Below, piece by piece: positions 421 through 54,575 of a stretch of DNA of 64,000 nt. This DNA comes from Octopus sinensis (Eukaryota): the NCBI RefSeq assembly GCF_006345805.1, contig NC_043013.1, positions 50,530,001 through 50,594,000 on the forward strand, read 5' to 3'. The notes beneath the pieces are model-generated. The model did not search any database and was not told the DNA's origin. It saw only the letters and a program-made list of their open reading frames with translations. The stretch's first letter is position 1. Every line of letters starts with the position of its first letter. A program made the position numbers and the translations under genes.

Positions 421-421
<1 letters not shown>

Positions 422-577
422 TTTATTAAAGCAGCAGAAAATTCAACAAAATCTGTTACTCTGAGTTTCTCGTTGCCGTTCATCAGACAGTTTTTGCTAG
501 CAAAAACTGTCTGATGAACGGCAACGAGAAACTCAGAGTAACAGATTTTGTTGAATTTTCTGCTGCTTAAAATAAAG
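421..577. repeat. Near-perfect fold-back palindrome (~78-bp arms, no spacer) in (TA)n, probably Penelope pLTR-derived
   Basis: Arms are reverse complements centred on GCT|AGC (498/499), with differences only near the outer end. (TA)n on both sides. Confidence 0.93.
501..550 (+). ncRNA. Minimal type I hammerhead ribozyme-like motif (mirror copy on minus strand at 447-496)
   Basis: Stem I CAAAAACTGT/ACAGATTTTG, core CTGATGA (511-517), stem II CG-GCAA-CG, GAAA (528-531), palindromic stem III ACTC-A-GAGT, cleavage triplet GTA ending at 540. Confidence 0.7.
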
Positions 578-609
<32 letters not shown>

Positions 610-1333
610 TATATATATAGTTATATATTATATATGTGTGTGTGTGTGTGTGGCTGTCTGTATGTAGGAGCAGGCGCGGCTGTGTGTTAAGAAAGATTGC
701 TTTCCAAAACACATGGTTCCGGGTTCAGTCCCACTGCGTGTCACTGTGGGCAAGTGTTTTCTACTATAGCCTTGGGCCGACAGAATCCTTGTGAGTGTAT
801 TTGCTAGACGGAAACTGAAAGAAGCCCGTCGTATATGTACATTTATATATATGTGTGTGCGTGCGTGTGTGTATCTGTACTGGACAACCGGTGTTGGTGT
901 CCTTTTGTCCCGTAACTTAGCGGTTCGACCAAAGAAACCGATAGAATAAGTACTAGGCTTAAAAAATAACGCCTGGTGGCAATTTGTTCGACTAAAACCC
1001 TTTAAGGCGGTGCTCCAGCATAGCCGCAGTCAAATGACTGAAACAAGTAAAACAGTAAAAGCATGTATGTATGTATGTGTGCGTGTGTGTGCGCACGTGT
1101 CCCTTTTGATACAAATTCGCCCGAGATTGCCCCAGGATGTATGGTACAAGCTTCCTGCATTAAAATGCTTCAATTAAAGCCATCCATCAAAATTTCATGT
1201 TGAATTATGTTCCAGACACCAACTTAATAATGACAAAGATATTTTCGCAAAATTCTTCAGAATTCTACAAAATTAATAGAAAAAAAAATGCAATTTCAAC
1301 AACATCCTTTTGCCTTTTGTTATTTCTAAGTGC

Positions 1334-1364
<31 letters not shown>

Positions 1365-1637
1365 TGTATGTATGTATGTATGTATGTATGTATGTATGTA
1401 TGTATGTATGTGTATGTATGTATTTGTGTGTGTCTGTGTTTGTCCCGCCACCCACCATTGTTTGACAACCGACGCTGGTGTGTTTAGGTCCCCGTAACCT
1501 AGCGGTTCGGGAAAACAGACTGATAGACTAAGTACCAGAGAATAAGTGCCGGGTGTCGATATGTTCGACTAAATGCCTTTAAGGCAGTGCTCCAGCATGG
1601 CCGCAGTCAAATGACTGAAACAGGCAAAACAATAAAG

Positions 1638-1679
<42 letters not shown>

Positions 1680-2569
1680 TAATAAATAAAATATATGCAT
1701 ACATACAAACATATATGTACGTACCGACATCTACATGTATATATACATGCATATATAAATATATATACGTACAGGACATCACAAGAAGACGAAAAAATGA
1801 ACAGAACGAAAACGGAAAAGACATTTTGTTACAACAGAAGGACAGAGACGTGGAACAAGACGAAACGAAAACGGGAAAAACAATTATGTGCAGTAGAAAA
1901 ACGAAGTACAAGACATGCTGCACAAGGAAAAATCCCCTTCATCAGTTGTCGCTAGCAGACACGTGTTTCGAAGACATACATACGTACATGTATGTATGTA
2001 TGTATGTATGTATTATTTTAGATGAGCCAACCTATTGCTATCCTGAGCTTCACAGCAATAAGCTGCCCCAACCAACATAAAATATCATTAATATCTGATC
2101 TGTACCATGTTATTGAGTACACTTTTTCCCGATAGTAAATACTAAACGGACACACACACACACACAGTGCATATACATGCTGTTCGTTACTGGTTATGGC
2201 CCAGTGGTCAGGGCAGCGGAATTGCAGTCGTAGGATCGCGATTTCGATTCCCAGAGGGCGTTGTGAGTGTTTATTGCACGAAGGCACCTAAAGTTCTACG
2301 AGGCTCTGGCAGGGAGTGGTGGCGAACCCTGCTGTACTCTTTCACCACAACTTTCTCTCACTCTTACTTCCTGTCCCTCTTGTACCTGTATTTCAAAGGG
2401 CCAGCCTTATAACACTCTGTGTCATGCTGAATCTCCCTGAGAGCTATGTTAAGGGTACATGTGTCTGTGGAGTGCTCAGCCACTTGCACGTTAATTTCAC
2501 GTGAGCAGGCTGTTCCGTTGATCGGATCAACTGGAACCCTCGTCGTCGTAACTGATGGAGTTCCACGAG

Positions 2570-3560: not shown

Positions 3561-3610
3561 TGCTCCACGCTCAGAATTGTCGAAGCCATGGAATAAAATA
3601 ACCAAAACTA

Positions 3611-4492: not shown

Positions 4493-4541
<49 letters not shown>

Positions 4542-4707: not shown

Positions 4708-4748
<41 letters not shown>

Positions 4749-4749
4749 G

Positions 4750-5332: not shown

Positions 5333-5390
<58 letters not shown>

Positions 5391-5760: not shown

Positions 5761-6590
5761 AGGTCTTATTTTTATAACGTGCTTTCACTGCACTACCGAG
5801 TACAGCTCTGTGTGCCTTGGGTATGTGCTGTGGTTTGTTGTGATGCTCTTGTTTTCACTGTATTGAAAGTGTTTTGCGTAGGATGTGTGCAGTGCCCAGG
5901 AGTGCAATTTTCTGTATGTTGTATATATTTGTAAGTCCTGGTGTTTTTGTTATGTATTTGTCTGAATATTTTTTTATCATGCCTAATGCACCTACTATGA
6001 TAGGAATTGTTTCTCTTTTTAGACTCCACATTCGAGTTACCTCTATTTCCAGGTCTTTGTATTTTGAAAGTTTCTCCATTTCTTTTAGAGAAACATTGTT
6101 ATGTATTGATATTGATTCATCGATTAGTAAACATTTTTTTTCTTGATGATCTCTGATAATTATATCTGGCATTTAGCCTTAATTTCTCTATCTGAGTATA
6201 TTGGCATATCCCAGAGTATATTGACATATTGCTTTCTCATTTTCAGTGTTCTTTTCTGGTGTGTGCCTATACCATATATTGGCATAGCTTCCAGTGTATC
6301 CCAACTGTGTCGTGTCTGTGAATATATTCTTTCTTAGCCAGGACTGGGCAGCCAGAGACAATATGATTTTTGTTTCTTGTCCACCTCCACATATTCTGCA
6401 GTTACTTGTTATGTTTCTTTTCATTATATGTTTTTGGTAATTTCTGGTGGGGAGGCTTTGGTCCTGTGCTGCAATTAAAAATCCTTCAGTCTCTGTTTTG
6501 AGTCCTGAGCTTCTCAACCATTGTCTTTTTTGTTTAGTATAATCCAGTATTTGCCATGAAGCGGCTTTTCTTGCCATCGTTTTGTCATGA
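5758..6590 (-). mobile_element. R4/Dong-like non-LTR retrotransposon 3' fragment (REL endonuclease), disrupted
   Basis: ORFs 6188-6718 and 5855-6172 give ETEGFLIAAQDQSLPTRNY, CRIC zinc knuckle, PDIII..CLLID and KLSKYKDL..W...IPIIVGALG. The 3' end abuts (TAA)n. Confidence 0.85.
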
Positions 6591-7033
6591 TCCGTCGCTG
6601 TTCCGGTTTTAGTTTGGATTTCAGTTGTTTTAATTATCATTGCTGTTGTTGTTGTTGTTGTTGAGCAAGGCAGCGAACTGGCTGTAGACGAAATGCCAAG
6701 AAGTATTTCGTCTGGCACGTTCTGAGTTCAAATTCCGTCGAGGTCGACTTTTTCCTTTCATCCTTTAGGGGTCGATTAAATAAGTACCAGTTACGCACTG
6801 GCGTCGATATAATCGACTTAATCCGTTTGTCTGTCCTTGTTTGTCCTCTCTGTGTTTAGCCCCTTGTGGGTAGTAAAGAAATAGGTATTTCACCCTTCAC
6901 TACGTTCTGAGTTCAAATTCCATCGAGGCCGATTTTACGTATCATCCTTTCAGGGTCGATAAATTAAGTACCAGTTGTGTACTGGGGTCGATCTAAAATT
7001 CAGGCCTTGTGCTTATAATAGAAATTATTATTA

Positions 7034-7134: not shown

Positions 7135-8286
7135 ATTTTCTTTTTTTTCTTCTTTCAAATTTGCTTCCATTTCTTGCCGAGTGTCTTCCCGACTCCTAGG
7201 GCAAAGAAACTCATAGTATACATTGGTAGGCCATTAAACTAAACTCACTAGTTCGTTCATTTAAAAAAAAATTTAAGTTAAATTAAAATACATGGGTAGT
7301 AATAGTTCTCACATCGACAATGCTCTTCTCAATACGTGCGATGTACCAGTTAAGACAATCTTTTGCACTTCTTGCAGGGATGGTAAGCCAGGGATCATTC
7401 TCATATAATTTTCGGTTCCCTTCTTGATCATTCCTAGTGCTCCTACGATCACTGGTATTGTAACCGCCTTGAGATGCCACATTTTCTCAATTTCAATGAG
7501 TAGGTCTTTATATTTTCTGAGCTTGTCAAACTCTTTCGCTGAGATATTATGATCACAGGGGATGCTCATGTCGATCAATAAGCAAACTCTATTGTTTTGG
7601 TCTTTCACAACAATATCTGGTTTATTGGCTTTGATGGTTCGGTCTGTATGTACTGGAAAGTCCCACAGAATCGTTACATTTTCTCCTTCAGTTACAGCCT
7701 CAGGGTGGTGATTATACCACTTGTCGGCAGTTTTGATATTGTAATGCCGACTTATTAGCCAGTGTAGATATTGGCCAACTCTGTCATGTCTTAATTTATA
7801 CTCCACTGGTGCTAAGACTTTACATCCAGAGATTAGGTGGTCCACTGTTTCAATCATGTCGTTGCAGAATCGGCATTTTGGGTCTGCTCCATTTTTCATC
7901 ACATTGGCCTGGTAGTTCCGGGTTAATAGGCTTTGATCTTGAGCAGCCAGGATGAAACCTTCGCTCTCTGCTTTTAGCCCTGAGCTCCGTAGCTACAGAT
8001 GGGTTTGCTTCTGGTCAACATCAGCTTGTTTGCTGCGGGTCACATATTTGCCGTGCAGAGGTTTCTCCTCCCACCTATCAGCCAATTGCTCGTGCGCTTT
8101 TTTCGTTGCCATCATTTTCACCTTCTTTGCAACAATAGTTGCCGTACTTCCCTCGGGTTGTTCAGTTTGGGTATCCTGCACGAGATCAATAGCAAATTTT
8201 TTGCTTTCCTTTATGATAGAATGAAGCTTCTTTCGTCCTCGTGATTTTCCACGAGCTTTAACATCCAGTCATTCGTTATTTCAAGA

Positions 8287-8366: not shown

Positions 8367-8858
8367 CCTATGCACAGCTTCTAATGCTGGAGATGTATTA
8401 CAGTGTCAGCTGTTCACCACCAGTGAACTAAGGTAACACCTCTTATTTTTCGAGCATCTTCCGGAGTATTCGAGCGGTTCAAAACAGTGCAGTTTTCTGC
8501 AAGTGCTCCACCCTTATTGCAGCCCCTATTTGTTCATCGTACTTCTTGAAATCTTTGCTCACTGTTCCCAAGGCTCCGACAATTATTGGCACTACTGCTA
8601 CCTTTTTCATCGACCACAACTGCTTAACTTCCCAAGCTAACTTGTCATATCTCTCGACTTTTCTTTCTTCCTTATCGCATATCTTGTTATCAGCTGGGCA
8701 TTCTATATCTATGATCCAGCATAATTTGTTTTCTTTCTCAATTAAGTCTATGTCCGGCTTCCTATTCTCTATCTCCTGGTCGCACTGAATCATGAAATCC
8801 CATAGGATCTTTGCATTTCTATTTTCAACAATGCCTTCAGATTTGTGGTCGTACCAAT
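8367..8858 (-). mobile_element. Third R4/Dong-like REL endonuclease fragment (different subfamily)
   Basis: ORF 8479-8793 has KPDIDL..CWIIDIECP and PIIVGALG. Bounded by ATT repeats. Confidence 0.85.
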
Positions 8859-9048
8859 TTATTATTATTATTATTACTATTATTGAGTAAGGCAGCGAGC
8901 TGCCAGAATTGTTAGCGCGCTGGACGAAATGCTTAGAGGTATTTCAACCGTCTCTACTTTCTAAGTTCAAATTCCACCGAGATCGACTTTGCCGTTTAGG
9001 GTCGATAAATTAAGTACTAGTGATCACTAAGGTCGATGTAATTGACTA

Positions 9049-14626: not shown

Positions 14627-14698
14627 AGGTCCTACCGAGATTCGAACTCGGATCGCTGGATTCAAAGTCCAGAGTGCTAACCATTACACCATAGGACC
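14627..14698 (-). tRNA. tRNA-Gln-TTG: tRNA-Gln, anticodon TTG
   Basis: Reverse complement GGTCCTATGGTGTAATGGTTAGCACTCTGGACTTTGAATCCAGCGATCCGAGTTCGAATCTCGGTAGGACCT. It is 72 nt with a complete cloverleaf (acceptor GGTCCTA/TAGGACC, anticodon loop CTTTGAA, T-loop GTTCGAATC) and runs into a T4 tract (Pol III terminator). Confidence 0.97.
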
Positions 14699-16819: not shown

Positions 16820-18259
16820 TACATCACATGTTGCGCATATTCAATTCTTTATTGCCCACAAGGGGCTAAACATAGAGAGGACAAACAAGGACAGACAAAC
16901 GGATTAATTCGATTACATCGACCCCAGTGCATAACTGGTACTTATTTAATCGCCCCCGAAAGGATGAAAGGCAAAGGCGACCTCGGCGGAATTTGAACTC
17001 AGAACATAGCGGCAGACGAAATACCTATTTCTTTGTTACCCACAAGGGGCTAAACACAGAGGGGACAAACAATGACAGACAAAGGGACTAAGTCGATTAC
17101 ATCGACCCCAGTGCGTAACTGGTACTTATTTAATCGCCCCCGAAAGGATGAAAGGCAAAGGCGACCTCGGCGGAATTTGAACTCAGAACGTAGCGGCAGA
17201 CGAAATACCGCTAAGCATTTCGCCCGGCGTGCTAACGTTTCTGCCAGCTCGCCACTCTACACTGCACTATATACTATACAGCACTTACTTTTTACCATAC
17301 TATACTGGCAACGAGGGTTCCAGATGATCTGATCAACAGAACAACCTGCTTGTGGATTATACATGCAAGTGGTTGAGCACTCCATAGATATGTCTACCCT
17401 TAATGTAGTTCCCAGGGAGATTTAGCATGACACAGACTGTGACAAGGCTGGCCCCTTTGAATAGCAGGTACTATTTGTTTTTGCCATCTGAGTGGACTGG
17501 AACAATGTGAAATAAATTGTCTAAAAGACACAATGCACCACTGGGAATTGGAACTCACGACTTTACAGTCATGAGCAGAATACCCTAACCATTAAGCCAC
17601 ACACCTTCACAAATTAATGTGCAAGTGGCTGAGTACTCCACAGACACATGGTATCACACAAAATGGGACAAGGCTGGCCCCATTGAATTACAGGTACAAC
17701 ACATTTTTGCTAGCTGAGTAGAATGGATGAATGAGAAATAAAGAGTCTTGCTCAAGGACAGTGCACCATTGAGAATCGAACTCACAATATTACGATTGTG
17801 AGCCAAATGCCCTAACCTCTAAGCCACATGCCTTCACACCTTACTGTAAGACACCACATTGTACGGAACTATAATAAATCATGAAATATGAGGTATAAAG
17901 CGAAGATACATGGCTCAATGGTTAGAGCGTTGGGCTTACAATCATGTGGCAGCGAGTTCAATTCCTGGACCGGGCTGTGTGTTGTGTTCTTCAGCAAGAC
18001 ACTTTTATTTCATGTTGCTCCAGTCCATTCAGCTGTAGGAATGAGTTGCGACATCACTGGTGCCAAGCTGTGTCAGCCTTTACCTTTCCTTTGGACAGCA
18101 TCAGTGGCATGGAGACGGGAGGCTGGTATGCATGGACGGCTGCTGGTCTTCCATAAACAACCTTCCCCGGACTTGTGCCTCAGAGGGTTACCTTCTACAT
18201 GAAATCCCATGGCCATTCATGACCAAAGGGAATCTTTACTTTTTTATGAGATATAAAGT

Positions 18260-18530
18260 ACATTAGTTACACTTGACGGGTATTTGTCCTCAACTTGTTT
18301 GTTATTAACACAAAGTTCTGGCTGATATATCCTCCAGCCTTCATCAGGTGTCTTGGGAAATTTCGAACCTGGGTTCTCATTCCTAAGATATTTTTTCAAT
18401 GTTATTATTGTTATTATTATTCAAGTCTCTGTTTGGAATCAAACTTGGGATCTTGGGGTTAGTAGCCCATGCTCTTAACCACTACATCATATGCCTGTGG
18501 GCAATTCTGGAGTGAATTTTAGGGCTTATA
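18260..18530 (-). mobile_element. SINE-like element with tRNA-like head and degenerate hammerhead; second copy at about 23965-24203
   Basis: Minus strand: GTAGTGGTTAAGAGCATGGGCTACTAACCCCAAG...GTTTGATTCC (A/B-box-like), then ACAC-CTGATGA-AGGCTG..CAGCC-AGAACTTT-GTGT. Confidence 0.6.
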
Positions 18531-19843
18531 AAGTAGTTTAGGGAATTAGAGACCAAACTAGGTTCATCAAAATGAAAGTAAAAATGAAACTATGTCTTTG
18601 CCAATTTGCAAACCAATATTTCCTTATCTGGAATAACTCCAGATCTGAAAACTGCTTTTGAATCGAAAGTACTCCATTCAAAGCTTGTCCATAGCAATTT
18701 CACTTTCCTTGCTCATTGTATCACTCGGTGAGGTAGAACTTGAGACAATATAATCATGAAGCAAACTTTTCTACTCTTGGAACCGTAGTATAAAGAGAAA
18801 ATTCTTTAAGTTGGTAAAAATTCTGCTATTTTGGACACTAGTCTTCCTTTAGCAAAAAGAAAACTAGGTGAATCAGAAATATTAAATTTCTAAATATCTA
18901 ATAGAGATATGTATGGTGGTGGGGCGATAGAGTGGTTGTATATTGTCAACTTAACGTGACAGTCCCATAAAGGGAATTACACCACTGCTATTTAGCCCTA
19001 GGAAGCATCAATGCTTCCTGTCGGCCTTGACACATTTCCTGTATCCTTATATATTTACGAAGGGGAGACAAACACCCCCAACAGCTAGGACTAGCAACCT
19101 GAAGACATGCATGTTTCTGGGTCTTGCCCATCATCAGTCTAGAGTAGCAAGGCCTGCTAGCTGAAGATATCTGTCTAGACTTCATAAATATATATATATA
19201 TATATATTTTCTTCCTTCAAGAATAGAAAACAAGAGGAAAAGGAAAGAGACAAAAAAATGGTAGTGCTGTGGTAGTTTTGCTACCAAACCTACCCTAACC
19301 CTGACCCTTTCTATGAGAGTAAACTGCTGAATGGGCTTACCAGTCAGTGCCAGAAGTACTCCACCTCACCTGCACCTTAATTTATGCCTTTTAACTCTCT
19401 CCCCAGCCTCTGTTGCCTCCTCCTCCTTCTTCTTCTTCTCCTTCTATACACCCTACACGTCTCTCCGTCTGTGACTGTCCCACTAAACCCTTGACAAACT
19501 GCTATCACCTTTCATATTTGCCTCACCTACACAAACCAAAGACACCAATCTGGCCCTAAATGTCTGCATCTCTCTCCCTCGCTGTGCCTCAAGCAGGATA
19601 GTCTTTCATTGTGGACAGCAAGTGTCTTTGCACACATCCCGAGAAACCCACCCACATCCAGAATCACTGGCCCCTTTTACTTTGTTCAGCTTATCCTTGT
19701 TCTCAATTCTTTTCCCTTTTTGGGATACATGTATGTATATGTATGTAAGTATGTATGTGTGTATGTTTGTAGTTCAAATTTACAGAAAGTGAAGGAACGG
19801 CGAGTAGGTGTATTAGTTTAACACTTAGGGAGAATGGAAAAGT

Positions 19844-19879
19844 CTTTGATGTTTCAAGCCTATGCTCTTCAACAGAAAG
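19844..19879 (-). ncRNA. Hammerhead-like motif with variant core CTGTTGA (decayed)
   Basis: CTTT-CTGTTGA-A-GAGC-ATAG-GCTT-GAAAC-ATC-AAAG. Same family as 36572-36608 and 36764-36799. Confidence 0.45.
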
Positions 19880-20319
19880 GATTGAGATGAAAAAAATGGA
19901 GAGAAAAAAAAATTTGTAGGTATTAATAGTTCAACATGTGTGTATGTATGTATGTGTGCATGTTTGTGTGTGTGTCTTCTGTGCCTTGACATTGTGTGAC
20001 TGTTGTAAATGAGTGTCACTGTTATATAAGTGGTGTCCTTCATGTCCAGTCTTCCATGAAAACATGTCTGGCCAAAAAGAAATATTACTTTACTTAGAAA
20101 CAGGTGAAGGTTGTTGACAGGAAGGGCATCCAACTGTAGAAAATATGCTGCACCAAATTCCGTCCAACCCATGTGGGCATAGAACAGCAGACATCAAAAC
20201 TATGATGATGAAGCTCTTTGGTGCCTAATCCCTACCCAAACAGGCACTTCCAAGAGCAGTTGCTATGGGTACCACACTTTGTGATGGGTACCACAGTTGC
20301 CATGGGTACCACTCACATT

Positions 20320-20656
20320 AATAACACCAGTTCTATCAAACTTCAGCTGCACGTTTACCATCATCATATACTTCATTGCATTTCTTTGGAAACGTCTACC
20401 TTGGTAAAATTGTCTATCATTTAGGTGATCACTTGATCACCCAGATCAAGAGATCAATAACAACACTCTTCAGTGCATGTCTGGCCTTTCCCGTGGTTCA
20501 CCATTCCAACCAGGCCCACCACCACACTGTCGACCACCTCTTGGTGTTCAGTGTTTCTGCTAACCATGGATCTGTATATTCTAAGAAACATAAAAAGTAC
20601 ATCATATTACTCCTCTTCACTTGGAGCACCTTCTTCCTCAGGCTTAAACAAACCTC
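20320..20656 (+). mobile_element. Penelope-like element GIY-YIG endonuclease remnant
   Basis: Across frames: NFSCTFTIIIY.I, YLGKIVYHLGDH, FPVVHHSN...HTVDHLLV and GLNKP. These are degenerate versions of the PLE motifs FTCTS.NVIY, YIGETGRRLGDR, PVARHFN and GLN. Confidence 0.7.
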
Positions 20657-20925
20657 TTGCTCTTCCTACTCCTCCTTTTGCTCTTCCTGCTCTTCCTACT
20701 CCTCCTTTTGCTCTTCAAACTTCCACTTTTGCTCTTCCTACTCCTCCTTTTGCTCTTCCTGCTCCCCCTTTTGCTCTTCCTGCTCCCCCTTTTGCTCTTC
20801 CTGCTCCCCCTTTTGCTCTTCCTGCTCCCCCTTTTGCTCTTCCTACTCCTCCTTTTGCTCTTCCTGCTCCCCCTTTTGCTCTTCCTACTCCTCCTTTTGC
20901 TCTTCCTGCTCCTCCTGTTGCTCTT
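20657..20925. repeat. 21-bp pyrimidine-rich minisatellite (about 13 units)
   Basis: Unit CTTTTGCTCTTCCT(G/A)CTCC(C/T)C. It generates the FALPAPP / FCSSCSP ORFs. Confidence 0.9.
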
Positions 20926-23330: not shown

Positions 23331-24232
23331 TATATGTATGTGTGTGTGTAGATATGAATGTATGTATACCATGCACTTCCGTACCAGTTTCACTTACATA
23401 ACATTGGCCAGCCTCAAGATACAGAAGAAAGAAACTTGCTCAAGGTGCCACGAATTGAGATGGAACCCGAAATGATGTGGTTCTTCATATAAGAAAAGGC
23501 ATTTGATTGGCAGAGTCATTGGCGCACCGGAAAAATGCTTTGCAATATTTGTTCTGGCTCGTGTCAATCTTTATGTTCTGAGTTCAAACTCTGCTACGGT
23601 CGACTTTGCCTTTTGTCCATTCATGGTCGATAAAATAAGTACCAGTTGAACTCTGTAGTAGATATGATTAACTTAGCCACTCCCATGAAACTGCTGGCCT
23701 TGTGCCAAAATTTGAAATCAATATTTGTTCTGGCCCTTTATGTTCTGAGATCAAATCCCGCTATGGACAATTTTGCCTTTTATCTCTTCTGGATCAATAT
23801 GATAGAATAACAGTCAAATACTGGGGGTTGATGGTAGTACTGCTCATTCCTCCCTCCCCTCAAAATGTCTGGTCTTGTACCTTACTCTGAAACAGTTATT
23901 AGAACAAAAAGAATGGTGGTGAGCTGGTAGAATTGGTTTTGAGAAATTTTACTATTCTATATTTTGGGGATGAGGAATTATTTACGTTTTTTACATTGGA
24001 CAGATATGTGTCCTCACCTTGTTTATTGTCATCACAACATTTCAGCTGGTGTTCTCTCCAGCCTTCATCAGGTGTTCTGTTGGAATTTCGAACCCAACTC
24101 TTTATTTGACTAATGGGGAACACTGTTCTGATTCCTAACATGTGTTGCTAGTGTTATTTTTCTGTTAATATTATTTTTCAAGACCCTGACTGTGATTGAA
24201 CTTATATATATATATATATATATAGCGCTGGC

Positions 24233-30908: not shown

Positions 30909-32281
30909 GTGTGTGTGTGTGTGGGTTGTGGCGCTCCGTTGGTTATGATGACGAGGGTTCCAGTTGATCTGATCAACTGCTGATGAAATTAACATGTAAG
31001 TGGCTGAGCACTCCACAGACATGTGTACCCTTAATGTAGTTCTCGGGGAGATTCAGCGTGACAGAGGGTGTGACAAGGCTGGCCCCTTTGAAATACGGGT
31101 ACAACAGAAACAGGAAGAAAGAGTGAGAGAAAGTTGTGGTGAAAGAGTATAGCAGGGTTCGCCACCACCACCTGCCGGAGCCTCGTGGAGCTTTAGGTGC
31201 TTTCGCTCAATAAACACAATGCCTGGTCAGGGAATTGAAACTGCAATCCTGTGACCACAAGTTTGCTGCTCAAACCACTTGGCTATTGTGCCTCCACTAT
31301 ATATATACATATATATATATATATACACACACAGGTGAGCACATAAGCGCAAAACAAGGTGGAAAGAATAGTACTCAAATACCAAAGGTTGAGCAATATT
31401 CTGACAAATTAAATTTAAATGTTGAAGTGAATCTAACGGTTTTTGTGTGTTTCTTAAATGGCTTATAAACACCTTCCATGCTGCAATTGTATATTATATA
31501 TATCAGTGAAATCATAGTCATAGCTGATGCTGGTGTCACATAACTGGAACTTGTGCTGGTGGCACATAAAGAGCCCCCTTTGAGTGTTGTGCCTCTTGGA
31601 GGCAAAGTGGCTGAGTTTGTTTTGAGTATTGGGCCTCATGGAGGCAATGATCAAGACTTTTGGCATTATGTCGTGAAAGATACTGGTGTCACACATATGG
31701 CACATGAAAGCACCCATTACACTCTCAGAGTGGTAGGCGTTAGGGAGGTCATCCATCTGTAGAGAACCATGCGAAATCAGACCGGAGTCTGATGCAGCGT
31801 TCCAGTTTACTAGTCCTGGTCAAACTGTCCAACCCATGCCAGTATGGACAACGGACGTTAAATGCTGATGATATATATATATATATTTCTTTATTGCCCA
31901 CAAGGGGCTAAACATAGAGGGGACAAACGGATTAAGTCTATTACGTCGACCCCAGTGCGTAACTGATACTTTATTTATCGACCCCGAAAGGATGAAAGGC
32001 AAAGTCGACCTCGGCGCAATTTGAACTCAGAACGTAGCAACGAGTGAAATACCTATTTCTTTACTACCCACAAGGGGCTAAACACAGAGAGGATAAGCAA
32101 GGACAGACAAACGGATTAAGTCGATTGCATCGACCCCAGTGCGTAACTGATACTTTATTTATTGACCCCGAAAGGATGAAAGGCAAAGTCGACCTCGGCG
32201 GAATTTGAACTCAGAATGTAGCGGCAGACGAAACACGGCACGCATTTCGCCCGGTGTGCTAACGTTTCTGCCAGCTCGCCT

Positions 32282-32335
<54 letters not shown>

Positions 32336-33902: not shown

Positions 33903-34549
33903 AGAGTTTTGTTTCAAATTTGGTAGATTGATGTAATTTTTCATGCTGAATCTGAATATGGGATTCTTTTCTTCCAGAAAAAAATTTAGTAACATGTTAC
34001 AGAGGTTCAGTGTTTGATAATATTTATCAAAAAGCAGGATTGGGAAGCTGGCATTTTCTGCATGATAGCTGTCTGTCACAAAACGGTTCTCATCAAAACT
34101 TGTGGTGATGGTTGAGATGGTGAAAGTGTGATGGTCATGTGAGTTCAGTGCCCTTGTCACATTGAAAACAGAGAAGACAAAAGCTTTGCTTGTCACTATG
34201 GAAACAAAACACCAATGTGAGATTTACAGTTATGTGTATAATGGTAACTTTTGGTTGGCTCAAATTACCCAAATATGCTAATTTTGAAAGCTATTAACCT
34301 TTTATTTATTAATTTATAGCAAAAATGAATTTCCTTTTCCTAATTAGCATACAAAACTAAATTAGTATACTAAATTTGAAAACAACTGGAACAAAATTGA
34401 AAAAAATTCAAACTGTGACAGAAACTGAAAAAATCCTGGTAAATTTTAACTATTATGAAAAGGACTGTTTTCAACAGAAATGGCTTTTGATGTACAGTAG
34501 TGGCCCTAACATTAAAACTCTTTTAGCCTGTAAAATTATGAATTTGTAG

Positions 34550-34900
34550 TTGATATATGCACCTGCAAGAACAAAGTTATATACTCATTTAACCACATTT
34601 GCAATGCCACAACAGTTGTATAAGAAGTGGGAGTCAGTCTACGAACAAGAATGAGGAAAATGAGACAAATTAAATGTATGCTGGAATGACAGAAGGAAGG
34701 TTTAAGAAAAGATACTATCTCCTTTCAAGATAAAGAGAAAAATATATCAATATTCTTATCAAAATATGTATGGCAACTCAGAGATAACTATATTAAGTGT
34801 ACAGGAAAGTGGAGAATGGCATGTTTGAGGAAGAAGCAGACTATAAATCAATGGACTAGTTGGTGGTTGTTGTGTACAGCAGAGAAATTACGGCAGGCCC
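34550..34900 (+). mobile_element. Penelope-like GIY-YIG endonuclease remnant (second lineage)
   Basis: Across frames: CTCKNK, ICNATTVV, MYAGMTEGRFKKRY, SF.DKEK...LSKYVWQLRD...KW and LCTAEKL. These match the PLE pattern CNCR..CPL..C / YIG.TE..FK.RY / LSK.IW.LK / LCL.EK. Confidence 0.75.
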
Positions 34901-36184: not shown

Positions 36185-36534
36185 ATGTGTTGCTTTTCAG
36201 TTTTCATATCAAATTCATGGCCAAACTTAAAACGAAGAAGACTTTGTGTGTGGGTGTGTGTGTGTGTGTGTGTGTGTGTGTATTTCTTTTTTTCTTTTTT
36301 TCTTTTATGAGTTTCAGTCATTTGACTGTGGCTATGCTGGGGCATCACCTTTAGTTGAAGAAATCAGTCTCAGGACTTATTCTTTGTAAGCCTAGTACTT
36401 CTTCTATCGGACCCTTTTGTCGAACTGCTAAGTTACTGGAATGTAAAGTAACCATCATAGGTTGTCAAGCGATGGTGGTGGGGACAAACACACCCACATA
36501 CACACACACACACACACACACCCATGATTGACCA

Positions 36535-36890
36535 CTAAATCCACAAGTTTTTTTTATTCTCTCTTGTGTTCCTTTCTGTTGAAGAGCTTAGGCTCAAAAT
36601 ATAAAAGACCTCACTTTCCTGAGTGTCAAACTAATACAGCTACTTGTTGTTTATACATCTGACTTTGTCTTTTTTTTTTTGTTTTTCTGTAAATTTCAAC
36701 TGTCGTTAGCCACTACACACATTTTTTTCTCTCCTTGTTTCTCTCCTTGTTTTTTCTGTGTCCCTTTCTGTAGAAGAGTGTAGGCTCGAAACGTAAAAGA
36801 CTTTTTTCTATTCCTGAGCATTATACTAATACATCTGTTTGTTTTGTACACCACCTGTCTTGTGCTTTGTTTTTTTCATAAACTCTCCCT
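36535..36890 (+). mobile_element. Tandem pair (192-bp period) of pLTR-like units, each with a hammerhead-like motif
   Basis: CTTT-CTGTTGA-AGAGCTTAGGCTC-AAAATATA-AAAG (36572-36608) and CTTT-CTGTAGA-AGAGTGTAGGCTC-GAAACGTA-AAAG (36764-36799), each followed by homologous TTCCTGAG...ACTAATACA. Ends at (TA)n. Confidence 0.6.
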
Positions 36891-38344
36891 ATATATATAT
36901 ATATATATAATATATATATATATATATAATATATATATCATCATCGTTTAGCGTCCGCTTTCCATGGTAGCATGGGTTGGACGGGTCAACTGGGGTCTGT
37001 GAAGCTGGAAGGCTTCGTCAGGCCCAGTCAGATCTGGCAGTGTTTCTACGGCTGGATGCCCTTCCTAACGCCAACCACTCCGCGAGTGTAGTGGGTGTTT
37101 TTTACGTGCCACCTGCACAGGTGCCAGACAGAGCTGGCGAATGGCCACGAACGGATGGTGCTTTTAACGTGCCACCGACACGGGGCCAGACAGAGCTGGC
37201 AACCGGCCACCAACGGACGGTGCTTTTACGTGTCACCGGCACGGGGCCAGGCGATGTTGGCAACGGACACGAACGGATGGTGCTTTTACGTGCCACCGAC
37301 ACGGTTGCCATATATATATATACATATATATACATATATATATATGACGGACTTCTTTCAGTTTCTGTCTACCAAATCCACTAACAAGGCTTTGTTTGAG
37401 CCGAGGCTATAGGTACCCTGCTATAGGTGCTCCAAGGTTCCACACAGTTGGACTGAACCTGGAACTATGTGGTTGGGAAGCAAGCTTCTTACCACACATC
37501 TAAGCACTCTGTCGGTTACAATGATGAGGGTTTCAGGTGGTCCGATCAGTGGAGCAGCCTGCTCTTGAAATTAACGTGCAAGTGGCTGAGCACTCCACAG
37601 ACACGTGTGCCCTTAATGTAGTTCTCAGGGAGATTCAGCGGGACAATGAATGTCACAAGGCTGACCCCTTTGAGACTCGGATACTACTCATTTTTGCCAG
37701 CTGAGTAGACAGGAGCAAAGTGAAATAAAGTGTCTTGCTCAAGGACACAACACATCGCCAGGAATCAAATCCATGACCTTATGACCCTCAGCTGAATACT
37801 CTAACCATTAAACTATTTATCTTCACAAATTAATGTGCAGGTGGCTGAGTACTCCACAGATATGCATACCCTTAAGGTTAGTTCTCATGGAGATTCAGCA
37901 TGACGCAGAATGTGACAAGGCTGGTCCCTTTCTAATTACAGGTATAACTCATTTTTGCCAGCTGAGAGGACTGGAACAATTTGAAATGAAGTGTCTTGCT
38001 CAAGAACACTACGTCCTGCTGGAAATTGAACTCACGACAGTGAACTGATTGCCCTAACCACTAAGCCACGCTCCTCCATCTTTGACAATATGATGAATAC
38101 CTTTAAACTATTATTCTTTTATTCTTCTACTTGTTTCAGTCATTTTGACTGTGGCCATGCTGGAGCAATGCCTTTAGTTGAACGAATTGACTGCAGGATT
38201 TATTCTTTGTAAGAATATTCTATCAGTGTTTATTCTATCGGTCTCTTTTGCTGAACCGCTAATTTACAGGGATGTAAACACACCAACATCGGTTGTCATG
38301 AAATGATGGGGGGGGCAAACACAAACATACAAACATACTCATGC

Positions 38345-42036: not shown

Positions 42037-42894
42037 TGCTGGTGGCATGATTAAATGCACCCAGTGGTTGTTAAAAGAACTGGAATACAGTGAAGAGGAC
42101 TTTTTCCCCTTTGTTGAGAAGATGACAAGCCCCTGTGTCATGCTGGTGCCATGATAAAATGCACCCAGTGGTTGTCAAAGGAACAGGAATATAGTGAAGA
42201 GGACTTTTTCCCCTTTGTTGAGAAGATGACAAGCCCCTGTGTCATGCTGGTGCCATGATAAAATGCATCCAGTGGTTGTCAAAGGAACAGGAATACAGTG
42301 AAGAGGCTTTTTCCCCTTTGTTGAGAAGAGACAAGCCCCTGTGGTCATGCTGGTGCCATGATTAAAAGCATCCAGTTGTGTCAAAGGAACAGGAATACAG
42401 TGAAGAGGACTTTTTCCCCTTTGTTGAGAGATGACAAGCCCCTGTGTCATGCTGGTGCCATGATAAAATGCACCAGTGGTTGTCAAAGGAACAGGAATAT
42501 AGTGAAGAGGACTTTTTCTTCCCCTTTGTTGAGAAGATGACAAGCCCCTGTTCATGCTGGTGCCATGATAAAATGCATCCTTGGTTGTCAAAAGGACACA
42601 GAATACAGTGAAGAGGACTTTTTCCCCTTTGTTGGAAGATGACAAGCCCCTGTGTCATGCTGGTGCCATGATAAAATGCATCCAGTGGTTGTCAAAGGAA
42701 CAGGAATATAGTGAAGAGGACTTTTTCCCCTTTGTTGAGAAGATGACAAGCCCCTGTGTCATGCTGGTGCCATGATAAAATGCATCCAGTGGTTGTCAAA
42801 GGAACAGGAATACAGTGAAGAGGACTTTTTCCCCTTTGTTGAGAAGATGACAAGCCCCTGTGTCATGCTGGTGCCATGATAAAATGCATCCAGT
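42037..42894. repeat. Tandem repeat, ~104-bp unit, about 8.3 copies
   Basis: TGCTGGTG starts at 42037, 42141, 42245, 42348, 42450, 42555, 42658, 42762 and 42866. Confidence 0.95.
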
Positions 42895-47271: not shown

Positions 47272-47277
<6 letters not shown>

Positions 47278-47499
47278 TAGAATGCAATACAATGATTTCT
47301 GTTCAATCTTCGTTCAACTCCATTTCTTCAATTCACTAATAATATTAAAATTCAATTATCCGCACCAACGCACGGTTGCAATACCATAGGGTTGTACCTC
47401 CAACCGTGCTGTCTTCTGCTGTGATTTTTGCTACCAAGGTATCGGTTAAACTTTTGATTAATCTGCAACAAGATTATTCATCTTTCTATTTCACAAAAA

Positions 47500-48880: not shown

Positions 48881-50164
48881 TTTGGTTGTCAAGAAAGTTC
48901 TTGTGGAATTTTAAATTTTGGTTTTAAATGATGTGTTTTCAAATTAATTTTTGTTAAATTATTTTGACTTCATGTATCATTTTAAAGCCCGGTTTTTGCT
49001 CTATCTAATTGTGTTACTCTATTCAATTTTAGATAATTAGGCCATTTTTTCCGGAACATTGAATACAACATGTACAAAAAGCAAATTCACACAATTTTCT
49101 TATTCCAGTTCAAGCTAGGCCGAAAAGCTGCTGATACAGCTCATGATATCAATGATGCTTTTGGCTCAGGAACCACTAATGAATGTACAGCACAATGGTG
49201 GTTCAAGAAATTTTGTAGCGGTGACAAGAATCTTGAAGATGATAAGCATAGTGGTCAGCCATCGTATGTTGACAACGATCAACTAAGAGCCTTAGTGGAA
49301 GCCAATCCACACACAACTGTTTGAGAGCTTGCTTCTGAATTAGATATAATGTATATGACAATTTCCAACCACTTGAAAGAGATTGGAAAAACAAAAATAC
49401 TTGAGAAATGGGTGCCGCACGAATTGAATAACAACCCCCAAAAAACGCTGTTTTGAAGTGTCGTTTTCTCTTCTTTTACACAACAAGAATGACCCATTTC
49501 TCGACTGGATCATGACTTGCGATGAAAAGTGGATTCTTTATGACAACCGGCGATGCTCAGCTCAGTGGTTGGACACCAACGAAGCTCCACGGTACTTCTC
49601 GAAGCCAAAGTTGCACCAAAAGAAAGTCATGGTGACTGTTTGGTGGCCTGTGGCTGGTCTCATGCATCACTGCTTTTTGGATTCAGGTGAAACCATTTCA
49701 GTGGAGAAGTACTTTCAGCAAATGAATGAAATGCCTAAGAAACTCCGATAACAGCCAGCATTGGTCAATAGAAAAGGACCAATTCTTCTCCACGACAATG
49801 CTTGGCTGCATGTCACACAACTGACCCTGCAGAAGTTGAACATATTGGGCTATGAAACTCTGCCTCATCCACCATACTCACCGGACTTCTTGCCTACCGA
49901 CTACCACTTTTTCAAGCATCTCAACAACTTCCTGCATGAGAAATGCTTCAAAAACCAAGATGATGCCAAACACGCCTTCAACAATTTCATCGCTACCAGA
50001 ACGCATGATTTTTATGCTACTGGCATAAACAAACTTGTTTTGCTTTGGCAGAAGTGTGTTGATTCTGATGGTGTTTATTTCGATTACTAGAGTTTTGCTT
50101 GAGCTGAGGTATGTGCATCTGAATTTAAAGGTTAAAAACTGCAAGAACTTTCTTGACAACCTAT
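48881..50164 (+). mobile_element. Full-length but disabled mariner (D,D34D; Hsmar1/cecropia-like)
   Basis: TIRs GGTTGTCAAGAAAGTTCTTG with TA flanks, about 1.28 kb. Transposase 49070-50090 is broken by stops and a frameshift. Motifs WVPHEL, TCDEKW, HDNA and YSPDFLPTD, with 34 residues between the last two Asp. Confidence 0.93.
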
Positions 50165-51466: not shown

Positions 51467-51617
51467 ATATGTGTGTATAAAAATTATAGGTGAAGGGAAA
51501 AGCCACTAAGTGGTTTACCAACATGCTAGAAATAGGAGTTAAATTATTCTGTTTCTAGCATGTTGGAAAACCACTTAGTGGCTTTTCTCTTCATTTATAA
51601 TTTTTATACACACATAT
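51467..51617. repeat. Inverted repeat, ~70-bp arms, ~9-nt loop
   Basis: AAAAGCCACTAAGTGGTTTACCAACATGCTAGAAA versus TTTCTAGCATGTTGGAAAACCACTTAGTGGCTTTT. Confidence 0.88.
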
Positions 51618-52651
51618 AATATAATATTTGCAGTCTACAGACATTTTTACTCACGTTGTGTGCACACATACACAGACGTACACACTGCTCCCACCTGCAT
51701 ATGCACATACACCTGCACACACATACACACACAGCTGTGCACACACATGTACTCACACATACGCACACAAATGTGTACACACATGCACACATGCTTATAT
51801 ACATGCTTGCACAGAAACAACAGGCTTCCACACAGTTTCCATCTCCCAAATTCACTCACAAGGCATTGCTTGCACTGGGTCTATTGTAGAAGACGCTTGC
51901 CTAAGCTGCCGTCCAGTGAGACTGAACTCCAAACCTCCATGATTACAAAGCCAGCTTCTTAACCACACAGCCAAGCTTGTGCTAGATTGGATAAAATCAA
52001 TTTTGGTTTTCTAAATAAAGCCAGCTTGAATCTAAGCAGATTTCTGATGACATTAAAGCAGCACTAACTGAACCTCGATTTCTTGGATCAGTGCTCCAGT
52101 TGCACTAATCTTACTTTTATTCCATTATGCTGACCTAAGACAAAACACTTTAATGTACAGCTCACATTTGAATGGCAAAAAAGAATCTGTCGAGGGTGAG
52201 TTAGCTGTTATATCGAGGTTGCTGTGCTGTGCTTGCTGGTTGCTTTGTGATTTCATTGAACAGTTGATCCCTGATCCTTGCTTGATCCAGCAACTTGACA
52301 GTGAAATCATTTGACAGTTTGAAGTTCCTCTGCAAAGGTCAGGCTTACAATGAACAGCGTGCATGTTTATTTACCATTCTTCATTTGGTCTTAGTTCTGA
52401 AACTGCAACGGAAGGTCAGCTTATTCAGTTAATTTCATTTTTGTTTGACATTTGTTGACCTATCACTATATATTTCACCTTACTATTGACTTTCCATTAT
52501 ATATATATATATATATATAATTATAGAAAGTGTATTCTTAATTCTTAAATTTTAGAATATTATTAATTTCTAATTAATTCTGATATTCTCTCTGTGCATT
52601 TTCAACTTCAGTTCTTCTATTCCTCCACTTGTTTAGATTAATCACACACAC

Positions 52652-53101
52652 AAAAAATTAGCGTATATTTATACACAAAGAGGCAAGCCATAACAGGTTG
52701 TCTAACATACTAGAAAGAACAGGCAAAACGTCCAAAACCGCAGTTAAGAGCAATTTCAAAAGGAATGAAAAATAAAAACATTTATCATGTTTTACAGCCG
52801 CACTTCAGGTTTTGAACCTTAATTAGCAAACAAAATAATTAGCAAGGCAAAGTTCTCATCAGCAGATATGCCAAAACATTAACATATAAATTAGAGACAA
52901 AATAACACATGTCTCATCCTTATATATTATAATTTTCTAAATCCACCATGCAAGCACAGTTTCAATTGATAGCAAATAAAAATTGTGATGAACCTTCAGA
53001 AATTGCTAAAATCATTTCTTAAATTTATGACTGTTCTTTCTAGTATGTTAGGCAACCTGTTAAAGGCTTGCCTCTTTGTGTATAAATGTACACTAATTTT
53101 T
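52652..53101. mobile_element. MITE-like element, ~71-bp inverted arms around ~310 bp
   Basis: Arms 52652-52722 and 53031-53101 (TTTATACACAAAGAGGCAAGCC..AACAGGTTG.CTAACATACTAGAAAGAACAG). Confidence 0.8.
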
Positions 53102-53171
53102 ATATGAAAAATATGTCTATTTTTCTTTGTAGACATGCTAGGCACTGGTAGAAAACATTTCTTTAATTTTC

Positions 53172-53213
<42 letters not shown>

Positions 53214-53973
53214 TAGCAGCATAGCCCGGCGTTGCCCGGGTATGTAAGAGCCCCTGGTAGGCAACGACTAATCCCAATCTAGTGCTTTCCCTCTATGGAA
53301 CGAAGGCGCATGTGTAGGTTGCAATGTCTTCTCTTCACTCCCAAATAACTATCAAACAGCTATCGATAATTCAACCCAACCAATTCCTACCAGGAAGAAA
53401 TTACATTCGAGACTTTACTCCCAACACTGCCACTTCTGCTAATAGCTGCTGCAGCCGCAAGTTATTCGAATCCTTTTTTTGTTTAAACTAACAGAAAATG
53501 TGTTGCATATAAAAAGCTTAGATTCTCAACCCATGTCAAATTTATCGATTTTTTTCAGAACTGGGGGAACTTTTCAAAATTTTCGCTGCGTTAGTTTTGA
53601 ATTATGACATTGGGCTATGTGTGTGTCAAGTTTCTTCAGAATCGGTTGAAAGTCGTGGTCAGGGTGAGGGTACAACCTGACAGACACACAGACAGACAAA
53701 CTGCCGTTTATATATAGATATATATATATATATAGTTGTGGCTGTGTGGTAAAAAGCCTGCTTCCCAATCACATGGTTTGGGGTTCACTCCTAGTACATG
53801 GCACCTGGGGCAGGTGTCTTCTACTATTGCCTCAGGTTGACCAAAGCTTTGTGAGTGGATTTGGTAGATGGAAACTGAAAGAATCCCATCGTATATATAT
53901 ATATCTCTATCTATATATCTATCTATCCATCCATCCTTCCATCCCTACGACGGGCTTGATTCAGTTATATATA

Positions 53974-54575
53974 TAGTATTATTAGTGAATTGAAGAAATG
54001 GAGTTGAACGAAGATTGAACAGAATTCCTTTTATTGCATTCTACACATGTTTCAAAAACCACAATTTTCCAAATTCTGATTAAATAAGGATCCCATATTG
54101 TGGCTTTCTCTTCAGGAAAAAAATAGGAATTCCGTTGGCAGAACAAAACAGAACAGAGGCGCAGCAAAGCAATTTGAACGAGGCGGCTCTTAAAGAGCCG
54201 CCTCTTAAAGAGCCGCCTCGTTCAAATTGCTTTGCTGCGCCTCTGTTCTGTTTTGTTCTGCCAACGGAATTCCTATTTTTTTCCCGAAGAGAAAGCCACA
54301 ATATGGGATCCTTATTTAATCAGAATTTGGAAAATTGTGTTTTTGAAACATGTGTAGAATGCAATAAAAGGAATTCTGTTCAATCTTCGTTCAACTCCTT
54401 TCTTCAATTCACTAATAATACTAAAATTCAATTATCCGCACCAACGCACGGTTGTAACACCAAAAGGTTTTATCTCCAACCGTGCTTTCTTCTGCCGTGA
54501 TTTTTGCTACCAAGGTATCGGTTAAACTTTTGATTAATCTGCAACAAGATTATTCATCTTTCTATTTTACCAAAC
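53974..54575. mobile_element. Asymmetric fold-back element (~218-bp arms plus 152-bp tail), Penelope pLTR-like
   Basis: 53974-54191 is the reverse complement of about 54207-54423. A 15-nt tandem duplication TTAAAGAGCCGCCTC lies at the apex. TA repeats on both sides. Confidence 0.9.
54018..54136 (-). ncRNA. Type I hammerhead ribozyme-like fold with long stem II and extended stem I
   Basis: Core CTGAAGA (54115-54109), 12-bp stem II GAAAGCCACAAT/ATTGTGGTTTTT, GAAA (54053-54050), stem III ACATGTGT, GTA triplet, and distal stem I AACGGAATTCCT/AGGAATTCTGTT. Confidence 0.72.

What the first reader, a model, noticed from the sequence alone, without database searches (positions are those of the whole stretch)
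421..54575. At least four independent hammerhead-bearing small element families plus two Penelope endonuclease relics in one window
Seen: hammerhead-like motifs at 447-550 (family A), 18308-18351 and 24032-24075 (B), 19844-19879, 36572-36608 and 36764-36799 (C), and 54018-54380 (D). The best-preserved or reconstructed copies have a self-complementary stem III (ACUCAGAGU, AACGUU, ACGU, ACACGUGU). Most lie in or next to simple repeats. GIY-YIG remnants lie at 20320 and 34550. Established: the PLE-hammerhead association is known in metazoans. Inference: this genome hosts a dense, diverse set of PLE-mobilised, microsatellite-associated ribozyme retroelements that standard annotation would call unknown repeats.
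Basis: partly seen in the sequence, partly recalled or inferred. Interest (0 to 1): 0.75.

Follow-up and report, generated by a model that had tools for sequence, protein, structure and literature searches.

The report
Penelope retrotransposon ends carrying hammerheads

Summary
The motifs are real, but A-D are not independent small elements. Each is the hammerhead-bearing terminal repeat (pLTR) of a coding Penelope-like element (PLE): A Hydra clade, D Hydra-like, C Neptune-type, B Penelope/Poseidon-type. The window copies are 5'-truncated; A and D are head-to-head palindromes, and the PLE tail sits on one arm in 32 of 36 A pairs. Copy ends do not pile up at A's cleavage site, and about 98% of C matches carry A6U, so cleavage is likely dispensable.

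Two extras stand out. B's pLTR starts with a tRNA-derived head where 25 of 30 head-bearing arms begin, and its 754-codon majority ORF has no TTTT run, so it is possibly Pol III-transcribed. A fifth family E (18872-19199) is a 360-nt head-to-tail unit with no linked PLE ORF found and PLE-type ends (retrozyme-like), targeted at one site by an L1/Tx1-type LINE. Both GIY-YIG relics are weak but supported.

The scan noted B-type, E-type and LINE-targeting cases before, in this genome and others. Cleavage and Pol III transcription are untested.

The parts
421..578 (.). Family A: head-to-head palindrome of the 3' end (pLTR) of a young Hydra-clade PLE, inserted in (TA)n; this copy lacks the 72-nt tail
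   Evidence: folds as one hairpin, -124.4 kcal/mol
501..550 (+). Family A hammerhead (helix I 9 of 10 pairs, CUGAUGA, 2-bp stem II with an A.A closing mismatch, GAAA, palindromic stem III, predicted GUA site at 540); mirror copy at 449-498 on the minus strand
   Evidence: sequence
18246..18495 (-). Family B copy 1: tRNA-like head (18422-18495), short (AAT)n, degraded hammerhead, partial tail; pLTR of a Penelope/Poseidon-type PLE
18872..19199 (-).
19803..19909 (-). Family C copy (A6U core), truncated pLTR of a Neptune-type PLE
20327..20657 (+). Old single-copy GIY-YIG relic resembling the family C endonuclease, frameshifted
   Evidence: z 8.3; not supported by the profile test
23946..24094 (-). 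Family B copy 2: 5'-truncated, hammerhead core intact, with tail
31340..31402 (-). Fragment of the family A tail
34540..34890 (+). Old single-copy GIY-YIG relic resembling the family A (Hydra-type) endonuclease, with frameshifts and stops
   Evidence: marginal; z 6.3
36522..36701 (+). Family C copy, degraded (A6U, G12 lost)
36703..36904 (+). Family C copy (A6U core), ends in (TA)n
47272..47493 (+). Family D 3' piece starting at stem III, with tail, in (TA)n
53974..54575 (.). Family D: palindrome 53974-54423 plus one-sided tail 54424-54575, in (TA)n; pLTR of a second, Hydra-like PLE
14627..14698 (-). tRNA gene (anticodon UUG, Gln); used only as the comparator for the family B head
   Evidence: (70.7 bits)

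Best explanation
Motifs A-D are the hammerhead-bearing terminal repeats of four different protein-coding Penelope-like retrotransposons, left as short 5'-truncated and often back-to-back insertions that were likely made by reverse transcription starting just downstream of the hammerhead on RNA that the ribozyme likely had not cut. Shown: each repeat is continuous with its own coding sequence in other copies; inverted A pairs carry the tail on one arm only; 5' ends crowd at the start of helix I in A and at the tRNA-like head in B. Inferred, from the in vitro work on the anole PLE: the element's protein nicks AT-rich DNA and starts cDNA at one of two internal sites (with or without tail); priming on the 5' copy of that site runs off the RNA's 5' end after 100-350 nt and gives the mini-copies; a second priming or a fold-back gives the inverted arm. 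In B the RNA 5' end is likely set by a type 2 Pol III promoter (A and B boxes) in the head. Family E is likely a non-autonomous, retrozyme-type passenger of the same machinery.
For: A: the core lies downstream of a 723-codon open RT-GIY-YIG frame in L079 and of ORF pieces in 7 more of the 20 loci fetched, with the Hydra motifs RWK, DKT, CxCx5C, CxxC and CxH. D: ORFs 40% identical to A's over the RT lie upstream in L268, L269, L270, L271 and L278. C: 4 of 30 loci share more than 880 nt upstream, and L231 and L257 reach a GIY-YIG, with a CX4CxxC linker in L257. B: the head follows an RT-EN ORF in 27 of 29 loci chosen by ORF similarity, and L336 is pLTR-ORF-head. Tail on exactly one arm in 32 of 36 inverted A pairs, on both in 0. 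The window's exact junction occurs at only 108 places among 7,518 arms, and junctions vary. A 5' ends: 29 of 84 arms at -7..+5 of helix I, 5.1% per nt against about 1% on either side; 4 of 84 at the cleavage site +/-2, the background rate. B: 25 of 30 head-anchored arms start at -22..+11 of the head, 4.3% per nt against 0.19% upstream. C: 11,864 U6 matches against 208 A6 matches. Literature: inverted 5'-truncated copy, one-sided tail and (TA)n bias (PMC8557442); internal initiation, tail, and hammerhead mutants that still insert (PMC11167929).
Against: No RNA start or end could be shown. The only raw-read runs came from another listed organism, gave equal depth in both directions and had no start or end pile-ups. 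Both 5'-end hot spots overlap short self-complementary words (CTAG in A; a GCCC-AC-GGGC hairpin in B), so template switching could produce them without any promoter. The B sample was anchored on the head, so it excludes arms ending further downstream. Samples are the first places on contig C1, or best hits, not random draws. The B head is not called as a tRNA by ARAGORN (0 of 13 loci) or Rfam. The T-run test is moderate: P 0.045 and 0.0055 for two codon nulls, 0.02 for a mononucleotide shuffle, 0.12 for a dinucleotide shuffle, and an A-rich LINE ORF also had only 2 runs in 529 codons. C showed no inverted partner in 30 of 30 loci. Pfam does not recognise the A ORF, so clade names rest on motifs, not on a tree.
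Confidence: 0.85

Rival explanations
1. A-D are independent non-autonomous ribozyme retroelements (retrozymes or SINEs) that merely borrow PLE enzymes.
For: Most copies are short. B short copies look like a tRNA-headed SINE: the body follows the head on the same strand in 28 of 30 head loci. Family E is such an element. A Pol III head could let short B copies propagate on their own.
Against: Each of A-D is continuous with its own coding sequence, and 5' ends are spread along the element. No tandem unit-length arrays were seen, except a short triple A repeat in L167 and an A doublet in L089.
Confidence: 0.1
2. The pLTR reading holds, but the 5'-end hot spots are template-switch or fold-back sites at small palindromes, and B's tRNA-like head is a captured, non-functional relic; all four are ordinary Pol II elements.
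For: Both hot spots contain self-complementary words, and many junctions are fold-backs. A's hot spot also reads like a 3' splice site (pyrimidines-TAG), as described at helix I of Drosophila virilis Penelope (PMC4209133). The T-run result is only moderate.
Against: B arms with no inverted partner flagged also start at the head (for example L280, L284, L287, L300). The best-matching stretches with a real tRNA are the A- and B-box regions. The ORF has 0 TTTT runs against 17 in A and 10-14 in D.
Confidence: 0.45
3. The A and D palindromes are MITE-like DNA elements that move as fixed hairpin units into TA sites.
For: Perfect inverted repeats flanked by (TA)n; the 40 best-scoring copies of each are full palindromes.
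Against: That uniformity comes from the query. Junctions vary, arms run from under 30 nt to kilobases into the ORF, the tail is one-sided, and both arms share subfamily variants: D arm-arm identity 0.995 against 0.934 median between copies, 18 pairs.
Confidence: 0.02

Closest known systems
Hydra-clade PLEs (Craig et al. 2021, PMC8557442; sections 11 and 12 and passages read)
   Same: A has RWK, DKT, the CxCx5C linker, CxxC and CxH, a C-terminal GIY-YIG, a hammerhead, (TA)n targets, an inverted 5' copy and a one-sided tail. D has DKT, CxxC and CxH.
   Different: Tails are longer here (72 nt in A, about 150 in D, against 30-40 nt described). D lacks a recognisable CxCx5C linker and has a long low-complexity insert. 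A's commonest young form has an A.A mismatch at the 10.1-11.1 position.
Penelope/Poseidon PLE PAc of Anolis (Frangieh et al. 2024, PMC11167929; parts 1-2 of 4 read)
   Same: B has DKG and GxNF motifs, no zinc linker found, an ORF frame that runs through the hammerhead, a tail of about 35 nt and AT-rich non-repeat targets.
   Different: B's pLTR begins with a tRNA-derived head and (AAT)n, and its ORF lacks TTTT. No such promoter appears in the parts read.
Neptune-clade PLEs with minimal hammerheads (Cervera and de la Pena 2014, PMC4209133; parts 1-2 of 4 read)
   Same: C has the CX4CxxC linker, (TA)n ends, a bulged base between 9 and 10.1, G10.1-C11.1 and a palindromic ACGU stem III. The paper also reports dual motifs on opposite strands 100-700 bp apart.
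   Different: About 98% of C matches have U at the conserved core position A6. I found no paper with this variant, but Lunse et al. on PLE hammerhead variants could not be read.
Metazoan non-LTR retrozymes (PMC7229834, passages; bioRxiv 10.64898/2026.07.22.740005, parts 1-3 of 5)
   Same: E is a 360-nt non-coding head-to-tail unit with a type I hammerhead (6-bp helix I, 10-nt palindromic stem III predicted to pair as a dimer) and a long self-paired rod.
   Different: E is dispersed; none of 30 junction loci holds two hammerheads in tandem. It shows PLE insertion hallmarks (two 3' end points, 5' inversions) that the parts read do not describe. Circular RNA is untested.
Schistosoma SINE-like hammerhead retroposons (review PMC6765202, passages)
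   Same: Pol III promoter followed by a hammerhead.
   Different: Those are described as non-coding tandem repeats; B's head and hammerhead are the terminal repeat of a coding element.
Target-specific L1/Tx1-type LINEs such as Tx1L (recalled; only a citation seen in PMC8869645)
   Same: APE endonuclease, RT, zf-RVT and a CCHC ORF1; one fixed site with a roughly 20-nt duplication.
   Different: The target is a hammerhead repeat (E), just upstream of helix I; clade assignment was not tested with a tree.

Membership tests
EN+ Penelope-like element (A-D) | Single ORF with PLE-type RT and C-terminal GIY-YIG upstream of the repeat | tested here: met
   A; D; B; for C only the 3' part with GIY-YIG was seen (PF01541 E 0.004, below cut-off)
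EN+ Penelope-like element (A-D) | Type I hammerhead motif in the pLTR, sense to the ORF | tested here: met
   C carries A6U
EN+ Penelope-like element (A-D) | 5' truncation, adjacent inverted copy, one-sided tail | tested here: met
   A 32 of 36 pairs; D; B; C is truncated but had no inversion in 30 of 30 loci
EN+ Penelope-like element (A-D) | Partial-tandem pLTR-ORF-pLTR copy | tested here: inconclusive
   seen for B (L336) and possibly D (L271, two same-strand repeats around the ORF); not seen for A or C in the loci fetched
Hydra clade (A, D) | RWK, DKT, CxCx5C linker, CxxC/CxH in the endonuclease, (TA)n target | tested here: met
   A all met; D lacks the RWK match and the linker (definition)
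Hydra, Neptune or Poseidon clade | Placement in an RT phylogeny | not tested
Active hammerhead ribozyme | Invariant core C3, G5, A6, G8, A9, G12, A13, A14 and an NUH site | tested here: met
   family forms of A, B, D and E; several window copies are damaged
Active hammerhead ribozyme (family C) | A6 in the core | tested here: not met
   11,864 U6 against 208 A6 matches
Active hammerhead ribozyme | Self-cleavage | not testable with these tools
   no cleavage-end data; laid runs uninformative
tRNA-derived SINE (B) | tRNA-derived head with A and B boxes | tested here: met
   aligns to the window tRNA with scores 54-73 against a shuffle mean of 34; reached by 0 of 2,000 shuffles for 4 of 5 heads and 1 of 2,000 for the fifth; not called by ARAGORN or Rfam
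tRNA-derived SINE (B) | Non-coding element separate from its autonomous partner | tested here: not met
   the head follows the ORF in 27 of 29 ORF loci
Non-LTR retrozyme (E) | Non-coding 170-400 nt unit joined head to tail with a type I hammerhead | tested here: met
   360-nt unit; exact junction at 51 places; PLE ORF pieces near L346 and L365 lie beside, not upstream in frame with, the unit
Non-LTR retrozyme (E) | Tandem dimers or multimers with two or more hammerheads | tested here: not met
   0 of 30 junction loci, longest about 1.5 units; no 360-nt spacing among 49 exact cores
Non-LTR retrozyme (E) | Circular RNA | not testable with these tools
   no suitable RNA run
Non-LTR retrozyme (A-D) | No ORF; unit joined head to tail | tested here: not met

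The most novel reading that the evidence does not exclude
Family B is a protein-coding retrotransposon transcribed end to end by RNA polymerase III. A captured tRNA supplies the promoter inside its terminal repeat, the 2.3-kb RT-endonuclease ORF has been purged of TTTT terminators, and the uncapped RNA is translated cap-independently, while the same promoter sheds thousands of SINE-like copies of the tip. In the same window, E records a circular or tandem retrozyme RNA being inserted by Penelope enzymes and parasitised by a site-specific LINE.
Probability: 0.3. Interest if true: 0.8.

Novelty: new variant of a known kind. Interest (0 to 1): 0.48.

Why it matters
The core result is ordinary: thousands of scattered hammerheads in this genome are truncation products of PLEs, so motif counts overstate the number of ribozyme elements. 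Three things make open questions testable. First, the insertion anatomy is a genome-scale read-out of the PLE mechanism shown in vitro for one element, and a family with about 12,000 matches bearing A6U suggests cleavage is dispensable. Second, a coding retroelement driven by a tRNA-type promoter would blur the SINE/LINE divide and require cap-independent translation. Third, E gives direct sequence evidence for the proposal that animal retrozymes use PLE enzymes.

Tried and rejected
Fixed-palindrome (MITE-like) unit for A and D: rejected; it was an effect of the best-hit query (against 19, 24, 25, 30, 32).

A and D as Neptune, and C as Poseidon: my working labels in the notebook, corrected by motif tests.

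Arm homogenisation by gene conversion: not supported; arm-arm identity is about equal to the best other copy (D 0.995 vs 0.990, B 0.934 vs 0.940, A 0.986 vs 0.986).

E as the pLTR of an autonomous PLE: the ORFs that follow unit position 87 belong to a LINE.

RNA evidence: no RNA holder on record was listed. Three raw runs of another listed organism and one contig set gave equal depth both ways and no start or end pile-up for B, and barely covered E's hammerhead; this is not evidence either way.

Protein searches for the relics: nothing for 34690-34932; one hit for 20325-20600, a perfect tandem-repeat sequence that looks like an adapter artefact (my recall), rejected.

Other CUGANGA..GAAA strings (1243, 13292, 16529, 19161, 22226, 36959, 53581, 63746) were not followed up; they did not pass the descriptor.

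Literature searches with no relevant hit: hammerhead+Penelope+octopus, SINE+Penelope+tRNA-derived+hammerhead (39), Penelope/SINE/partner/Pol III (48), pLTR+polymerase III+tRNA (63, one review), Tx1+Penelope (88), A6U (89). Lunse et al. is not held. No supplements were read; those of PMC8557442, PMC4209133 and PMC13282606, and Repbase or Dfam entries, may already list these families.


Full report
Setting. The window is G000:C17:50530001-50594000 of a 2.72-Gb animal genome. That it is an octopus is my recall from its repeats, and one earlier AI note says so; no call of mine names it.

Observation. All listed motifs are present. A strict type I descriptor finds 4 in the window against a mean of 0.07 in 100 shuffles. 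Rfam shows no hammerhead among the 150 of 366 matches listed. A (421-578) and D (53974-54423) are head-to-head palindromes. RNA from either strand of A would form one -124 kcal/mol hairpin, against -8 for the lone hammerhead segment, so such insertions are predicted to sequester their ribozymes. Most other window copies are damaged (see observation check).

Family A. The palindrome query gave 529 candidates, and the 40 scored were full palindromes; 16 of 18 loci carry a 72-nt tail on one side, in (TA)n. This uniformity came from the query. The core has 1,949 matches with other upstream sequence, a downstream anchor has 7,518, and the window's exact junction has 108. In 8 of 20 longer loci the upstream DNA encodes RT and/or GIY-YIG, with a 723-codon open frame in L079. 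Its RWK, DKT, CxCx5C, CxxC and CxH motifs match the Hydra clade definition. The tail lies on exactly one arm in 32 of 36 inverted pairs and never on both. Of 84 arms mapped from the first 100 anchor places on C1, 29 begin at -7..+5 of helix I (5.1% per nt, against 0.93% downstream and 0.98% upstream), and 4 begin within 2 nt of the predicted cleavage site, which is the background rate.

Family D. There were 1,413 candidates and 649 anchor matches. Arms vary from under 30 nt to kilobases. L268, L269, L270, L271 and L278 link the repeat to a second ORF, 40% identical to A's over the RT, with DKT, CxxC and CxH but no linker match. The core is kept across subfamilies while position 7 and the stems vary. 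Arms of one insertion share subfamily variants (0.995 median identity against 0.934 between copies, 18 pairs) but are no closer than the best other copy (0.990), so there is no sign of conversion.

Family C. There are 11,864 matches with CUGU(U/A)GA and 208 with A6. The register is supported by the variable position 7, the bulged A, G10.1-C11.1 and the 4-bp stem II. Four of 30 loci share more than 880 nt upstream; L231 and L257 reach a GIY-YIG, preceded in L257 by a CX4CxxC linker, which is the Neptune type. No inverted partner was found in 30 of 30 loci.

Family B. The hammerhead pattern has 3,161 matches and the head pattern 1,096. The unit is a 75-nt tRNA-like head, (AAT)n, body with hammerhead, and a tail of about 35 nt, often as inverted pairs. 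The head aligns to the window's tRNA far above shuffles, best in the A- and B-box regions, but is too degenerate for ARAGORN or Rfam. I first read it as a SINE. DKG and GxNF motifs with no zinc linker found point to Penelope/Poseidon. Twenty-five of 30 head-anchored arms start at -22..+11 of the head, 4.3% per nt against 0.19% upstream. The column-majority ORF of 19 copies is open for 754 codons with no TTTT run, against 17 in A and 10-14 in D. Expected counts are 2.6 (P 0.045) and 4.7 (P 0.0055) under two codon nulls, 3.9 (P 0.02) under a mononucleotide shuffle and 2.0 (P 0.12) under a dinucleotide shuffle; an A-rich LINE ORF had 2 in 529 codons (that script stopped before the other controls). 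Pol III transcription is therefore plausible, not shown.

Window 18872-19199 (minus) belongs to a 360-nt unit: 2,890 candidates including relatives, and 49 exact cores. Two copies of its hammerhead co-fold, by minimum free energy, into the dimeric form with helices I, II and III. The unit's end is joined to its own start at 51 dispersed places. In 30 such loci the copies run 19-193 nt past the junction but never reach a second hammerhead; uninterrupted copies end mostly at about 300-306 or 361, and inverted arms are common. That is a non-coding, retrozyme-like unit with PLE insertion hallmarks, but without the tandem arrays that define the class. A larger related family exists (2,778 candidates). 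Eight of the 30 junction loci break at unit position 82-87. Of 8 fetched, 7 resume at position 68-70 after 1.65-5.5 kb of an APE-RT-zf-RVT LINE or its ORF1-only derivative. Of 13 genomic copies of that LINE's 3' end, 11 are followed by E by eye and 8 by a strict pattern.

Relics. Both GIY-YIG remnants are single-copy at DNA level and have no Pfam hit. A frameshift-aware alignment supports them (z 8.3 and 6.3 against 25 shuffles; the 34.5-kb relic also scores z 5.5 against the C endonuclease), while profile tests were marginal or negative. Neither lies next to a hammerhead of its own family.

Mechanism. Shown: continuity with coding sequence, truncation, inversion, one-sided tails, 5'-end hot spots, no excess at A's cleavage site. 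Taken from PMC11167929: AT-rich nicking on both strands, two internal RT start sites that define the tail, and insertion that does not need hammerhead cleavage. Inferred: mini-copies are run-off cDNAs from the 5' copy of the start site to the RNA's 5' end; the two arms come from the two start sites; the hot spots mark RNA 5' ends. The main rival for the last step is template switching at small palindromes.

Comparison and novelty. Minimal hammerheads in pLTRs, most as scattered truncated copies and some as opposite-strand pairs, are published (PMC4209133), as are the inverted copy, tail and (TA)n bias (PMC8557442) and the retrozyme-PLE link. I found no paper on a tRNA-headed pLTR of a coding PLE, on A6U, or on a LINE targeting a hammerhead repeat; subscription papers, supplements and repeat databases were not visible. 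The scan's own unchecked notes describe the B-type head several times in this genome and once in another, and an E-like repeat with a targeting LINE in this and other genomes.

Verdict. Observation partly confirmed; interpretation partly supported. The bulk is a known kind, B is a variant of it, and E is a likely retrozyme.

Noticed in passing
L470-L477 (for example L474:785-6238, L476); target matches window family E: An L1/Tx1-type LINE of 4.4-5.5 kb, and a 1.65-kb ORF1-only derivative, insert at one site of family E just upstream of hammerhead helix I, co-oriented, with a roughly 20-nt duplication; 11 of 13 LINE 3' ends are followed by E.
   Followed up: yes
L441-L469: A larger relative of E (2,778 candidates) with its own hammerhead and a tail-to-head junction in several copies.
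   Followed up: partly
window 501 and family A loci: The A 5'-end hot spot sits at a pyrimidine-rich TAG that reads like a 3' splice site directly before helix I, as described for D. virilis Penelope; no spliced copy was seen among 84 arms.
   Followed up: partly
family A loci L099-L168: Subfamilies differ in the core and stem II (U4C, position 7, and an A-U, A.G or A.A closing pair); the most uniform young form has the A.A mismatch.
   Followed up: no
window 421-578 and 53974-54423: Thousands of such perfect inverted pairs would give long dsRNA hairpins when read through, potential substrates for ADAR or Dicer (inference only).
   Followed up: no
window 14627-14698: tRNA gene, anticodon UUG, on the minus strand, 70.7 bits.
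   Followed up: yes
window 5855-6727, 7309-8268, 8479-8943: Three fragments that look like 3' parts of LINE ORFs, each next to (ATT)n tracts (identification recalled).
   Followed up: no
window 16350-16700, 22875-23189, 49037-50090: Fragments resembling Tc1/mariner transposases (identification recalled).
   Followed up: no
window 42037-42894: 104-bp minisatellite, 8.3 copies, 93% matches.
   Followed up: no
window 16845-17209, 21601-21955, 31922-32289 and 768-858 with relatives: Abundant dispersed SINE-like repeats, one family with a 184-bp internal tandem duplication.
   Followed up: no
L167 (G000:C1:37863200-37863565) and L089: Short same-strand repeats of the family A end, 172-173 nt apart (three copies, separated by (TA)n) and 299 nt apart.
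   Followed up: no
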